Assembly: GCA_964347045.1 (NCBI GenBank)
Contig: CAYFXC010000007.1
Location: 10,549 to 74,548 of the forward strand
DNA: 64,000 bases
Source of the DNA: an uncultured archaeon
Lineage (GTDB): Archaea > Asgardarchaeota > Hermodarchaeia > Hermodarchaeales > Hermodarchaeaceae
Reading direction: 5' to 3'
Part shown: piece by piece, positions 19,174 through 63,701 of the stretch
How positions within the stretch are numbered: the stretch's first letter is position 1
How the letters are laid out: each line of letters opens with the position of its first letter
Notes under the pieces: generated by a model
Database searches by the model: none
What the model saw: only the letters and a program-made list of their open reading frames with translations
Told to the model about the DNA's origin: nothing
Made by a program: the position numbers and the translations under genes

Positions 19174-19297
19174 TGGTAGCCCGGCGCGGATTCGAACCGC
19201 GGTCCCAAGGTTTCTCCACCATCTTGAATGTGGATCCAGAGCCTCGGATGATTGACCAAGGTGCATACCCCAAGTGAGCACTCTACACTACCGGGCT
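19174..19297 (-). tRNA. tRNA-Gln(CUG) with two introns: 15/16 (19259-19282, 24 nt) and 37/38 (19212-19235, 24 nt); CCA encoded
   Basis: Removing both introns gives a 76-nt cloverleaf AGCCCGG..CUCUGGA..GGUUCGAAUCC..CCGGGCUACCA; BHB-type central helices GUGU/GCAC and CUCU/GGAG. Confidence 0.92.
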
Positions 19298-61843: not shown

Positions 61844-61979
61844 CGCTAATCAGCTTCAGACTTGTCAATACAAGGCTTTGGATAGCCCATTGGTAGACAA
61901 ATAGCAGATGCAGAGGGGGTTATACCTTCTAAATATAAGAGGAAAGCTTTTTGTGGGAGGGCTTGGTTCAACATTTCTT

Positions 61980-62001
61980 CGTGCCGGGGCACCGTGCCGG
62001 G
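61980..62001 (+). repeat. Direct repeat CGTGCCGGG x2 duplicating the tRNA-His 5' acceptor strand in the leader
   Basis: CGTGCCGGG at 61980-61988 and 61993-62001. Confidence 0.8.
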
Positions 62002-62150
62002 ATTATGTTGGTAAGTATTTACCAGCTCCCGAAGGTGTAAACTGGTAATTACCCAGGCGCAATGGTAGCATTGAAGCCTGTGGAACCCTATCCTCATGGA
62101 TAGGATGCTGAGAGCTTTAGGTCGGGGTTCGAATCCCTGTCCCGGCACCA
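61996..62150 (+). tRNA. tRNA-His(GUG) with three introns: 8/9 (62004-62033), 15/16 (62041-62062), 37/38 (62084-62112); A73; CCA encoded
   Basis: Splicing gives a 74-nt cloverleaf GCCGGGAUGGUGUAAUGGUAGCAUUGAAGCCUGUGGAGCUUUAGGUCGGGGUUCGAAUCCCUGUCCCGGCACCA; BHB-type motif at each intron; adjacent to hisS. Confidence 0.88.
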
Positions 62151-62165
62151 TTTTTCACTATCAAC

Positions 62166-63701
62166 ATGAATAATAGAGAGAAGTACGAACATGAGTTGAT
62201 GAAAATGAAACGCGGAAAAGATCTAGCCGTTGGTGGATTTCGAGATTTCTACCCTGAACTTTATCAACGAATTGATAGAATACTTCAAGCCTTCCGTGAG
62301 ACTCCTAAATTGTTTGGTTATATCGAATATGAGTGCCCAACAGTTGAACCACTAGAACTATATCAGTTGAAATCCGGACCATCACTCGTTGAAGAAACTT
62401 TCAAAGTCACAGATCGCAAAGACCGGCAGCTTGTATTGCGTCCAGAAACAACACCCTCTCTTGCTAGGATGCTTGCCGCCCAACAGCAGTATTATCCACG
62501 CCCAATACGGTGGTTTTCAATTTCGCGCGTATTTCGAGATGAAACCCAACAACGAGGGCGCGTTAAGGAATTTTGGCAATTGAATGTCGATATTTTAGGC
62601 ACCGAAGATGTCGCCGCTGATGCCGAAGTTATCAACGTGCTCGCAGCAATCATTCTAAGCCTTGACTTCACACCAAAAGATTTCGTTATTCGGATCAATG
62701 ACCGGCGCTTAATCCAAAGTTTCATCGAATCATTGAAACTTACCAATTACACAGAGATTATACGAGTCTTAGACCGGCGCGAAAAACTCTTACAAGAATC
62801 CATTGTTGACCGGCTCACAAAAATCGGTACCCCAGCAAAAAAAGCGGACCAAATTGCCCTCAAACTTCGTCATTTCTATATTGGAAAACAAAAAGCCGAA
62901 CCAAAACTTCCAGCTTCTAAAGAAATTACAGAATTGAAAAAAAGTCTTCCACAACTTCAACGTCAGGCACTTATCAATGCACTTCGAAAAACGGGTATTA
63001 CTCAACAGGCAGCAGAACGACTCACTGATTTTTCTGCAATTCGAGGAACACCAAAAGATTTCCTTAAGGCCATGGATGACATAAAACTTGACAAATCAAC
63101 TCAACGAACCTTAGGCCCTCTTAGGCAACTCGCTATGCAATTGAATGACTTAGGAATAACAGATGTCTGTGAATTTGATGCAGGAATAGCCCGGGGGCTT
63201 GATTATTACACGGGCATCGTCTTTGAAGCTTGGGACCGCCGTACGGGATTACCTCGAGCAATTGCAGGAGGAGGTCGCTATGATGATCTTGTCGGCATTT
63301 TTGAAGGACAACGACTGCCAGGGACTGGATTCGGTTTTGGTGAGACTGTAATTTTGGAACTTGCTGAAGAAATGAACTTGCTTCCACCCCCAGAACCACC
63401 CGCTGAAATCTATTTAGCTCCGGTCTCAAAGAAACAACTAAGCAGTTGTCGAGAAGTCGCCTCACTCCTCCGAGCAGCGGGAATAAGGACACTTTTCAAT
63501 GGTTTTTCATGGTCACTAACCAAACATCTTGAGGATGCCAGTAAACGTCAGATCCCATTTGTTGCTATCATTGGACCTCAAGAACTTGCCAAAAAGGTCG
63601 CTAATGTCCGTGATATGAAGACTGGTAAAGAGCAGTCAGTTAAGATCACAAAATTAGCAGATTTCATTCAAGAAAAGCTTCAAAAAAGAACCAAATCTTG
63701 A
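62166..63701 (+). CDS. hisS: Histidyl-tRNA synthetase with enlarged insertion domain
   Basis: GFRDFYP, LRPETTP, motif 2 FRDETQQRGRVKEF, ARGLDYYTG.VFE, GGGRYD.L, GFGFG, anticodon-binding domain. Confidence 0.97.
   Translation: MNNREKYEHELMKMKRGKDLAVGGFRDFYPELYQRIDRILQAFRETPKLFGYIEYECPTVEPLELYQLKSGPSLVEETFKVTDRKDRQLVLRPETTPSLARMLAAQQQYYPRPIRWFSISRVFRDETQQRGRVKEFWQLNVDILGTEDVAADAEVINVLAAIILSLDFTPKDFVIRINDRRLIQSFIESLKLTNYTEIIRVLDRREKLLQESIVDRLTKIGTPAKKADQIALKLRHFYIGKQKAEPKLPASKEITELKKSLPQLQRQALINALRKTGITQQAAERLTDFSAIRGTPKDFLKAMDDIKLDKSTQRTLGPLRQLAMQLNDLGITDVCEFDAGIARGLDYYTGIVFEAWDRRTGLPRAIAGGGRYDDLVGIFEGQRLPGTGFGFGETVILELAEEMNLLPPPEPPAEIYLAPVSKKQLSSCREVASLLRAAGIRTLFNGFSWSLTKHLEDASKRQIPFVAIIGPQELAKKVANVRDMKTGKEQSVKITKLADFIQEKLQKRTKS

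What the first reader, a model, noticed from the sequence alone, without database searches (positions are those of the whole stretch)
61995..63701. Possible G-1-independent histidine identity system: A73 tRNA-His beside a HisRS with an altered motif-2 loop
Seen: the discriminator is A73, the genomic -1 base is T, and hisS starts 15 nt after the CCA. HisRS motif 2 reads FRDETQQRGRVKEF. Known: most archaeal and bacterial tRNA-His use G-1:C73. E. coli HisRS (FRHERPQKGRYRQF) reads the G-1 phosphate and C73 through R116, Q118 and R123. Eukaryotes have A73 with G-1 added by Thg1, and some alphaproteobacteria have A73 with no G-1. By-eye alignment gives R116->T and R123->K here. Inference: either a co-evolved tRNA/synthetase pair that dropped G-1, or eukaryote-like non-templated G-1 addition in an Asgard archaeon.
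Basis: partly seen in the sequence, partly recalled or inferred. Interest (0 to 1): 0.8.

Follow-up and report, generated by a model that had tools for sequence, protein, structure and literature searches.

The report
Asgard histidine tRNA without extra G
This Asgard archaeon's only histidine tRNA gene, hidden by three introns, lacks the near-universal extra 5' G and its C73 partner and sits beside an unusual enlarged histidyl-tRNA synthetase; no G-adding enzyme is found in 77 genomes that share the pair, so histidine tRNA recognition has probably been rewired, which would be the first archaeal case.

Summary
Window 61996-62150 is a tRNA-His(GUG) gene that gene finders miss because it has three bulge-helix-bulge introns. 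After in-silico splicing, ARAGORN calls a 74-nt tRNA-His. The base at -1 is T, the discriminator is A73, and CCA is encoded. An independent contig of the likely source run confirms A73.

hisS follows, but its conserved start is ATG 62205, 54 nt after the CCA, not 15 nt.

The pair is lineage-wide. A73 with no G at -1 occurs in the window's class (f1, Hermod-type) and in four Heimdall-labelled families (f4, f13, f18, f21). Each of these carries one distinct clade of ~500-aa HisRS with three features:
- motif 2 reads [FY]R[DN]ET.Q.GR[VL][KR]E;
- the Gly-Gly G-1 pocket is lost;
- the insertion domain has about 55 extra residues.

Families with other HisRS types (f5, f6, f9, f16, f19) encode G-1:C73. 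Thg1/TLP was found in 0 of 77 genomes of the A73 families.

Best reading (about 70%): a co-evolved histidine identity pair that does not need G-1. Eukaryote-like G-1 addition is not supported. The mature 5' end and the enzymology are untested.

Earlier notes of this scan describe the same state in other Hermod- and Heimdall-group genomes.

The parts
61938..61955 (+). Conserved upstream element AGAGGAAAGCTTTTTGTG, a likely BRE/TATA promoter of the tRNA gene. It implies a 5' leader that RNase P must remove.
   Evidence: The same element lies 30-50 nt upstream of tRNA-His in genus g2 loci L013 and L014. The promoter role is inferred. RNase P RNA is present in the genome at 177 bits.
61995..61995 (+). 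Position -1 of tRNA-His: T, not G.
   Evidence: In relatives of the class, -1 is T in all but one and A in L012, never G.
61996..62150 (+). tRNA-His(GUG) gene with encoded CCA. Exons: 61996-62003, 62034-62040, 62063-62083, 62113-62150.
   Evidence: The spliced sequence is called tRNA-His(gtg), 74 nt, by ARAGORN. Covariance model R1 built from it recovers tRNA-His genes across the phylum.
62004..62033 (+). Intron 1 (30 nt), between tRNA positions 8 and 9, with a bulge-helix-bulge (BHB) motif.
   Evidence: The 4-bp central helix CGGG/CCCG is flanked by two 3-nt bulges (worked out by hand from the sequence; scan). The intron is absent in L013 and L090, which read GCCGGGAT|GGTG.
62041..62062 (+). 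Intron 2 (22 nt) in the D-loop, after position 15, with a BHB motif.
   Evidence: Central helix GUGU/GCGC, where a G-to-A change in L013 turns a U-G wobble pair into U-A. The inner hairpin CTGG/CCAG has a loop of variable length and sequence. There is an intron at the same site in f21 genome G120, and the f21 gene L241 lacks it.
62084..62112 (+). Intron 3 (29 nt) at the canonical 37/38 site.
   Evidence: The BHB motif has one U-U mismatch. The intron is absent in genus g2, where L013 and L090 read CTGTGG|AGCTTT.
62147..62147 (+). Discriminator base A73.
   Evidence: The Logan contig of run X1 is identical here. A73 is present in all relatives of f1, f4, f13, f18 and f21 that I examined.
62151..62204 (+). 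54-nt spacer: a T5 tract straight after the CCA, a conserved GATAATAG-like box, and GAGTTGA just before the start codon.
   Evidence: Whether hisS is read through from the tRNA or has its own promoter is unresolved.
62205..63701 (+). hisS, histidyl-tRNA synthetase, 498 aa from the conserved start. The longest ORF starts at 62166.
   Evidence: Pfam tRNA-synt_His at 5.7e-50 plus HGTP_anticodon at 4e-17. The start is conserved as ATGAAACG (MKRGK), with in-frame stops upstream in relatives. Database relatives are 494-509 aa.
62229..62246 (+). N-terminal VGGFRD. The position of T. thermophilus Arg7, by my recalled numbering, is Gly here.
   Evidence: The A73 clade has G/K/S/P/H/A at this position; most C73 families have R. 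The numbering of Arg7 is recalled, and its role is taken from PMC4357726.
62412..62426 (+). DRKDR, which aligns with T. thermophilus D70-R-G72-G73-R74. The Gly-Gly that forms the G-1 pocket across the dimer is Lys-Asp here.
   Evidence: Alignment to 4rdx/1adj. The A73 clade never has GG. The pocket role, and Asp-Asp in Caulobacter, are from PMC4357726.
62532..62573 (+). Motif-2 loop FRDETQQRGRVKEF.
   Evidence: The clade signature is [FY]R[DN]ET[QPL]Q[RK]GR[VL][KR]E[FH]. Among the 80 best loci kept by a scan of GTDB species genomes, the ET core occurred only in Asgard records.
62817..62993 (+). Clade-specific extension of about 55-59 residues in the helical insertion domain (protein residues about 205-263).
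   Evidence: The extension is absent from all other Asgard HisRS types in the alignment. The AlphaFold model gives confident helices here, pLDDT mostly 85-95. In the T. thermophilus complex, the insertion domain contacts nucleotides 72-75 (PMC4357726).

Best explanation
The locus encodes a matched histidine identity pair that works without the G-1:C73 element.

Proposed pathway:
1. The pre-tRNA is transcribed with a 5' leader.
2. The archaeal splicing endonuclease removes three BHB introns.
3. RNase P cuts at the normal +1 site, because nothing marks -1 for retention. The mature tRNA-His therefore starts at G1 and ends in A73-CCA.
4. The neighbouring 498-aa HisRS charges it without a -1 nucleotide.

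This HisRS belongs to a private clade in five Asgard families. The inferred changes are that the enzyme has given up most contacts that other HisRS make to G-1 and its 5' phosphate, and that it compensates through its enlarged insertion domain, which faces nucleotides 72-75 of the acceptor end, and probably through stronger anticodon reading.

Shown: the gene structure, A73, the absence of an encoded G-1, the absence of Thg1/TLP, the HisRS clade and its substitutions, and the co-distribution.

Inferred: the 5' end of the mature tRNA, and the enzyme's independence of G-1.
For: Gene and tRNA:
- The spliced gene is a normal tRNA-His with A73 and T at -1.
- It is the only tRNA-His gene found in the genome.

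The tRNA state is clade-wide. A73 with a non-G base at -1 was found in:
- about 17 genomes of f1;
- 10 genomes of f4, one of f18 and one of f13;
- two genomes of f21.

All of these families carry the ~500-aa HisRS clade: f1 17/18, f4 31/31, f13 11/12, f18 3/3, f21 12/12. The clade is monophyletic, with SH-aLRT 100 and 93.

Families with other HisRS types encode G at -1 and C73: f6 (6 genomes), f9 (3), f16, f5, and f19. f19 belongs to the same class as f4, f13, f18 and f21.

Thg1 (PF04446) results:
- 0/19 in f1, 0/31 in f4, 0/12 in f13, 0/3 in f18, 0/12 in f21.
- The search does detect TLPs in 16 other Asgard genomes and in the Methanosarcina control.

HisRS changes at the positions that contact G-1 in the T. 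thermophilus complex (PMC4357726):
- Arg115 becomes an invariant Thr.
- Gly72'-Gly73' becomes Lys-Asp.
- Arg7 becomes Gly.
- Arg122 is kept as Lys.

The G-1-independent T. brucei enzyme also lacks the Arg7 and Arg115 equivalents (PMC4338351).

RNase P RNA is present.
Against: - No RNA data show the mature 5' end. The only RNA run that held part of the stretch gave one contig over hisS of a relative.
- No single protein feature is diagnostic. The Arg116 position varies in canonical Asgard HisRS. The Gly-Gly pair is also missing in f9, which has G-1:C73, and is kept in T. brucei HisRS, which does not need G-1. Gln118, the C73 reader of E. coli, is retained. A Lys/Arg remains at position 123, so a 5'-phosphate contact could persist.
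- In this class, -1 is usually T and could pair with A73, and -2 G could pair with C74. An altered RNase P cut is therefore not excluded.
- On the HisRS tree the co-distribution is a single event, so it is co-inheritance and not repeated independent covariation.
- All genomes are 63-95% complete MAGs.
Confidence: 0.7

Rival explanations
1. An extra 5' nucleotide is still present but is not G. RNase P cuts one position upstream, because U-1 pairs with A73 and extends the acceptor stem as in bacteria. The HisRS then reads the 5' phosphate of N-1 through its Lys/Arg at position 123, whatever the base.
For: - In f1, -1 is T in all but one genome, and -2 G can pair with C74, which gives a 9-bp helix in the gene.
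- 7 of 10 f4 genes also have T at -1.
- Published archaeal HisRS (A. pernix, N. equitans) accept A or C at -1 and depend mainly on the 5' phosphate (PMC9976931, PMC10100707).
- The basic residue at position 123 is kept.
Against: - -1 is A in L012, G074, G071, G076, G032, G118 and G120, and C in G021. These cannot pair with A73, so no conserved -1:73 pair exists.
- Upstream DNA is AT-rich, so a T there is expected often.
- CCA is encoded in most tRNA genes of this genome, so the G-2:C74 pairing is incidental.
- The pocket for the -1 base is filled (GG to KD).
Confidence: 0.13
2. G-1 is added after transcription, opposite A73 as in eukaryotes, by an enzyme that the searches missed: a very divergent Thg1-like protein or an unrelated activity.
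For: - A73 with no encoded G-1 is exactly the eukaryotic gene state (PMC3245924).
- Plant mitochondria have a G-1-adding activity whose enzyme is not identified (same paper).
- The genomes are incomplete MAGs.
Against: - Thg1 N- and C-domain models find nothing in the own genome, and the N-domain model finds nothing in 77 genomes of the five families. It does find TLPs elsewhere in the phylum.
- Loss by incompleteness in all 77 genomes is not credible.
- Characterised archaeal TLPs need C73 as template (PMC3245924).
- The HisRS has lost the G-1 pocket and two of the three arginines that hold G-1.
Confidence: 0.07
3. The feature is ordinary: a canonical G-1-dependent system in which a second, standard tRNA-His gene (G-1:C73) or a second HisRS lies in unassembled parts of the genome.
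For: - The genome is 89% complete, and tRNA genes are often missed in MAGs.
- Multi-intron tRNA genes escape the standard finders.
Against: - No second tRNA-His or HisRS was found in the own genome by ARAGORN with introns, a custom acceptor/T-arm scan, the covariance model or a protein search.
- Single-contig genomes of f4 (G049, G050) show only the A73 tRNA among the matches I examined and only the ~500-aa HisRS.
- The same single pair recurs in dozens of independent MAGs.
Confidence: 0.03

Closest known systems
G-1-less tRNA-His with divergent HisRS in a clade of Alphaproteobacteria (Caulobacter crescentus; Wang 2007; Yuan 2011, PMC3064791)
   Same: - A73 discriminator and no encoded G-1.
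- Clade-wide co-inheritance with a private HisRS.
- The Gly-Gly G-1 pocket is replaced by charged residues: Asp-Asp there (PMC4357726), Lys-Asp here.
   Different: - Here the first pair is G1-C72, not G1-U72.
- The D-loop has 7 nt with no U20a.
- Gln118 is retained, whereas Caulobacter has Gly118.
- The HisRS belongs to a different clade with a ~55-residue extension of the insertion domain.
- The host is an archaeon and the tRNA gene has three introns.
- Anticodon dependence is shown for Caulobacter and only inferred here.
Noncanonical G-1-independent cytosolic HisRS of Trypanosoma brucei and Acanthamoeba castellanii (Rao 2013, PMC3561963; Rao and Jackman 2015, PMC4338351)
   Same: - A73 tRNA with a Watson-Crick 1-72 pair.
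- No Thg1 in the genome.
- The Arg7 and Arg116 equivalents are replaced: Gln and Ala in T. brucei, Gly and Thr here.
- T. brucei HisRS is the best eukaryotic structure match to the window's enzyme, at 3e-58 against 4e-34 for human.
   Different: - The trypanosome enzyme keeps Gly-Gly and has no enlarged insertion domain.
- Its motif 2 (WRYEAITRGRRREH) differs.
- It is no closer to the window's enzyme than Thermoplasma HisRS is (7e-67), so no special kinship is shown.
- Its independence of G-1 has been shown biochemically; here it has not.
Eukaryotic tRNA-His maturation: A73, with G-1 added without a template by Thg1
   Same: The gene state is the same: A73 and no G encoded at -1.
   Different: - No Thg1/TLP was found in 77 genomes.
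- The HisRS lacks the longer loop recalled for eukaryotic motif 2.
- It is further from human HisRS than the canonical Asgard type, which pairs with G-1:C73.
Canonical archaeal system: encoded G-1:C73 retained by RNase P, with or without a Thg1-like protein
   Same: - The same enzyme family (class IIa HisRS).
- The same RNase P RNA and intron-splicing machinery.
- Neighbouring Asgard families (f5, f6, f9, f16, f19) use this system.
   Different: C73 and the encoded G-1, described as among the most informative archaeal tRNA identity positions (PMC9976931), are both absent here.

Membership tests
G-1-independent tRNA-His/HisRS identity pair (functional class) | The tRNA-His gene has no G at -1. 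| tested here: met
   T at 61995. -1 is T or A in f1 relatives and C, T or A in f4, f13, f18 and f21. The one exception is a degenerate second copy in G120.
G-1-independent tRNA-His/HisRS identity pair (functional class) | The discriminator is not C73, so no G-1:C73 pair can direct RNase P. | tested here: met
   A73 at 62147, confirmed by an independent contig and in all relatives.
G-1-independent tRNA-His/HisRS identity pair (functional class) | The genome has no enzyme that could add G-1 (Thg1/TLP). | tested here: met
   PF04446 and PF14413 give no match in the own genome. PF04446 gives 0/77 in f1, f4, f13, f18 and f21, against 16 positives elsewhere in the phylum and a positive control.
G-1-independent tRNA-His/HisRS identity pair (functional class) | The mature tRNA-His lacks a -1 nucleotide. 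| not testable with these tools
   The public runs that hold the locus are kept as contigs. None shows tRNA ends.
G-1-independent tRNA-His/HisRS identity pair (functional class) | The HisRS aminoacylates tRNA-His lacking G-1 about as well as tRNA-His with it. | not testable with these tools
   This needs recombinant enzyme and transcripts.
G-1-independent tRNA-His/HisRS identity pair (functional class) | The HisRS has lost the residues that hold G-1. | tested here: inconclusive
   Arg115 to Thr, Gly-Gly to Lys-Asp, Arg7 to Gly, and Arg122 to Lys. However, each change also occurs singly in some G-1-dependent relatives, and T. brucei HisRS keeps Gly-Gly.
Class IIa histidyl-tRNA synthetase | A HisRS catalytic core with motifs 2 and 3, plus a C-terminal HGTP anticodon-binding domain. 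| tested here: met
   PF13393 at 5.7e-50 and PF03129 at 4e-17. Best solved relatives are HisRS of T. acidophilum, T. brucei and T. cruzi. GLDYYTG and GGGRYD are present.
Alphaproteobacterial G-1-less type (Caulobacter) | A G1-U72 pair and an extra U20a in a 9-nt D-loop. | tested here: not met
   The spliced tRNA has G1-C72 and a 7-nt D-loop, AAUGGUA.
Alphaproteobacterial G-1-less type (Caulobacter) | The HisRS belongs to the alphaproteobacterial divergent clade (Gly at position 118). | tested here: not met
   Gln is kept at position 118 in all members of the clade. The nearest non-Asgard relatives are Gemmatimonadota and CPR HisRS with FRYER.QRGRLREH. No direct comparison with the Caulobacter sequence was made.
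Eukaryote-type Thg1-dependent system | Thg1 is present and HisRS motif 2 has the eukaryotic Ala-Met-Thr-type insertion. | tested here: not met
   No Thg1. The motif-2 loop has the bacterial/archaeal length and keeps Gln.
Archaeal BHB-intron tRNA gene | Each intron is flanked by a bulge-helix-bulge motif, and the exons join to give a normal cloverleaf. | tested here: met
   - A 4-bp central helix and 3-nt bulges for all three introns, with one U-U mismatch in intron 3 (sequence).
- The spliced product is accepted by ARAGORN.
- Natural intron-less orthologues confirm each junction.

The most novel reading that the evidence does not exclude
The A73, G-1-less state of Heimdall-group archaea is the evolutionary source of the universal eukaryotic A73 discriminator. 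On this reading, the archaeal ancestor of eukaryotes already had A73 and a G-1-independent HisRS, and Thg1-dependent G-1 addition opposite A73 was imposed later, when the eukaryote-type HisRS took over. This would overturn the published inference that the C73-to-A73 change happened during early eukaryotic evolution (PMC3245924).
Probability: 0.07. Interest if true: 0.85.

Novelty: new member of a known kind. Interest (0 to 1): 0.62.

Why it matters
G-1 on tRNA-His is one of the most conserved tRNA identity marks. Exceptions are described only for one alphaproteobacterial clade and a few protists. Four searches of the held paper library that combined Asgard or archaeal terms with tRNA-His, Thg1 or HisRS terms found no archaeal case and nothing on Asgard tRNA-His.

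If the inference holds, these points follow:
- Whole Asgard lineages, including Heimdall-group relatives of eukaryotes, run a different histidine identity rule.
- One archaeal class holds both rules side by side (f19 against f4, f13, f18 and f21).
- The eukaryotic A73 is no longer unique to eukaryotes and a few bacteria.

There are practical consequences too. The pair is a candidate for a naturally orthogonal HisRS/tRNA-His set. The three-intron gene also shows that standard tRNA finders under-report tRNA-His in these genomes.

The claim can be tested directly with recombinant enzyme and transcripts, or by complementing yeast thg1-delta as was done for the protist enzymes.

Tried and rejected
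Gene finding:
- ARAGORN on the window found nothing. Rfam tRNA scored below threshold.
- My first splice model, with a D-loop intron of 45-51 nt taken from a BHB scan, was wrong. Comparison with relatives showed two separate introns instead.

Finding tRNA-His in other families:
- BLAST with the L013 tRNA recovered only other tRNAs.
- An anticodon-loop/T-loop pattern found one true hit among many chance hits.
- tRNA-His was not found in f2, f3, f7, f12, f22 or f33 with the model or the pattern. Their state is unknown.

RNA evidence:
- One metatranscriptome contig of a relative covers 62206-62258. No run showed tRNA ends or spliced joints, so nothing follows about the mature 5' end or about co-transcription.

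Readings set aside:
- U-1:A73 as a conserved pair: not conserved across genomes.
- The upstream duplicate acceptor strand (61983-61989) as an alternative 5' end: it too is preceded by T, and it is not conserved.
- Loss of Gly-Gly as a diagnostic: it fails for f9 and for T. brucei.
- Val/Leu at position 122 as unique: bacterial relatives have Leu there.
- Transfer from Heimdall-group to Hermod-group archaea: one tree nested f1 among the Heimdall families, but the tree that included f21 gave an unresolved polytomy.
My f9 genomes have G-1:C73, and I could not tell whether f9 is that lineage.
Full report
**What is in the sequence**

Window 61996-62150 (+) carries the two halves of an acceptor stem, GCCGGGA and TCCCGGC. 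It also has a perfect T-arm (CGGGG-TTCGAAT-CCCTG), an anticodon loop CTGTGGA, A at the discriminator position (62147) and an encoded CCA. ARAGORN finds no tRNA in the window, and the Rfam tRNA model reaches only 19 bits. The reason is that the gene is broken by three introns.

Seventeen related loci made the exon structure plain:
- Genus g2 genes lack the first and third insertions. They read GCCGGGAT|GGTGTAA and CTGTGG|AGCTTT.
- An f21 gene lacks the second insertion.

Each intron is bounded by a bulge-helix-bulge motif: a 4-bp helix between two 3-nt bulges. The introns are:
- intron 1, 62004-62033, after position 8;
- intron 2, 62041-62062, after position 15 in the D-loop;
- intron 3, 62084-62112, at the canonical 37/38 site.

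ARAGORN calls the joined exons a 74-nt tRNA-His(GTG) with a regular cloverleaf.

Other facts about the gene:
- Position -1 is T.
- A Logan contig of the probable source run matches 62132-62558 without a difference, so A73 is not an assembly error.
- This is the only tRNA-His gene that ARAGORN with introns, a custom acceptor/T-arm scan and a covariance model find in the 89%-complete genome.
- RNase P RNA is present.
- A conserved promoter-like element lies about 40 nt upstream, so a leader has to be removed.

**The synthetase gene**

The downstream ORF is a class IIa HisRS. The ATG at 62166, 15 nt after the CCA, is not conserved. Relatives have in-frame stops or no ATG there. All of them share ATGAAACG (MKRGK), which is ATG 62205 in the window, 54 nt after the CCA. 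This gives a 498-aa protein, in line with database relatives of 494-509 aa.

**Who else has it**

Earlier notes of this scan, and one NCBI title, label the organism as a Hermod-type Asgard archaeon. NCBI titles of close relatives disagree with each other. Its class holds a single family, f1, with 19 genomes.

The HisRS is 65-84% identical within f1. It is 36-46% identical in four families of another class whose records are titled Heimdallarchaeota (f4, which includes AB_125; f13; f18; f21). It is only about 30-35% identical, in two pieces, to the shorter HisRS (425-490 aa) of all other Asgard families.

On trees, the ~500-aa proteins form one clade, with SH-aLRT 100 when bacterial relatives are included and 93 in a second tree. 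The branching order of the five families is unresolved. The direction of any transfer between the two classes therefore cannot be stated.

A covariance model built from three spliced tRNA-His sequences recovered tRNA-His genes across the phylum.

| tRNA-His state | Families and genomes |
|---|---|
| A73, non-G at -1 | f1 (about 17 genomes), f4 (10), f13 (1), f18 (1), f21 (2) |
| G at -1, C73 | f6 (6), f9 (3), f16, f5, f19 |
| C73, 5' end unresolved | f15 |

Family f19 belongs to the same class as f4, f13, f18 and f21, so both rules exist within one class. The match between tRNA state and HisRS clade had no exception in the families I could resolve. On the HisRS tree, however, it is one event. 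It is co-inheritance, not repeated independent covariation.

**No route to G-1**

The Thg1 N-domain model finds nothing in the own genome, in the 19 genomes of f1, or in f4 (31), f13 (12), f18 (3) and f21 (12). That is 0 of 77. The same model detects Thg1-like proteins in 16 other Asgard genomes and in the Methanosarcina control. The C-domain model is also negative in the own genome.

**What changed in the enzyme**

The T. thermophilus HisRS-tRNA structure (PMC4357726, read) assigns contacts with G-1 to four elements: Arg115, Arg122, Arg7, and a Gly72'-Gly73' pocket across the dimer. It notes that Caulobacter, which has no G-1, carries Asp-Asp in the pocket.

| T. thermophilus element | Window's enzyme |
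|---|---|
| Arg115 | Thr |
| Arg122 | Lys |
| Arg7 | Gly |
| Gly72'-Gly73' | Lys-Asp |

Across the clade, motif 2 reads [FY]R[DN]ET[QPL]Q[RK]GR[VL][KR]E[FH]. HisRS paired with G-1:C73 have an aromatic or basic residue in place of Val/Leu, and a variable residue (R/E/N/A/G) in place of Thr. Among the 80 best loci kept by a scan of GTDB species genomes, the ET core occurred only in Asgard records. The nearest non-Asgard relatives are bacterial HisRS with FRYER.QRGRLREH.

The clade also has about 55 extra residues in the helical insertion domain. The AlphaFold model folds this stretch confidently. In the T. thermophilus complex this domain contacts nucleotides 72-75.

None of these features is diagnostic on its own:
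- The Arg116 position already varies in canonical Asgard enzymes, and is Glu in Thermoplasma.
- Position 123 is Lys or Arg within the clade.
- Gly-Gly is also missing in f9, which has G-1:C73.
- Gly-Gly is kept in the G-1-independent T. brucei enzyme.
- Gln118 is retained.

That removes this argument but not the conclusion, which rests on the genomic evidence.

**Relation to eukaryotes**

The window's enzyme matches human HisRS at 4e-34. The canonical Asgard type, which pairs with G-1:C73, matches it at 5e-68. The f19 enzyme has a human-like REFVQCD after motif 2 (the human sequence is recalled, not fetched). So the A73 clade is not the eukaryotic HisRS lineage, and the locus does not copy the eukaryotic system.

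Still, A73 tRNA-His in Heimdall-group archaea qualifies the published statement that A73 arose in early eukaryotes (PMC3245924).

**Verdict**

- Most likely (about 0.7): a co-evolved histidine identity pair that does not need G-1. This would be the first such pair indicated for Archaea, and it is present in five Asgard families.
- Retention of a non-G nucleotide at -1: about 0.13.
- An undetected G-1-adding activity: about 0.07.
- An unassembled canonical pair: about 0.03.

Four searches of the held paper library that combined Asgard or archaeal terms with tRNA-His, Thg1 or HisRS terms found nothing on Asgard tRNA-His identity.

Earlier notes of this scan describe the same state on other Hermod- and Heimdall-group genomes. 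I read them after forming this view and re-derived the evidence here. They are not independent support.

Noticed in passing
window 61981-61992: GTGCCGGGGCAC is an imperfect upstream copy of the tRNA's 5' acceptor strand (GCCGGGG, again preceded by cgt). It lies 13 nt before the real strand and forms a small palindrome. A similar copy (GTGCTGGGA) lies upstream in L014. Its role is unknown; it could be a leader structure or the remnant of a duplication.
   Followed up: partly
window 62151-62204: The tRNA-hisS spacer has T5 straight after the CCA, a conserved GATAATAG-like box about 30 nt before the conserved ATG, and a conserved GAGTTGA just upstream of it. A metatranscriptome contig of a relative carries at least 34 nt upstream of the ATG. 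Whether hisS has its own promoter or is released from a tRNA-mRNA co-transcript is open.
   Followed up: partly
L261 (G120:C94:20300-20402) and L241 (G118:C33:17538-17608): In family f21, tRNA-His also lies near hisS, 3-5 kb away. G120 has a second tRNA-His copy with G at -1 and A73, but it has two acceptor-stem mismatches and is probably decaying. The D-loop intron sits at the same site as intron 2 of the window's gene.
   Followed up: partly
L306 (G312:C1:161784-161854): An f15 genome with 8% contamination has a tRNA-His-like gene with C73 but T at -1. That is C73 without an encoded G-1, and this genome is one of the few with a Thg1-like protein.
   Followed up: no
window about 19174-19297 (-): An intron-bearing tRNA-Leu(CAA) is found only when ARAGORN is run with introns allowed on the whole contig. 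The default scan of the window reports no tRNA at all, so tRNA counts for this genome are underestimates.
   Followed up: no
L365 (G104:C5:76200-78400): The f19 HisRS (438 aa, paired with G-1:C73) has motif 2 FRDGPVKKGRYREFVQCD. It lacks Gln118 and resembles the eukaryotic cytosolic enzyme after the loop. It may be the Asgard HisRS nearest to the eukaryotic one.
   Followed up: no
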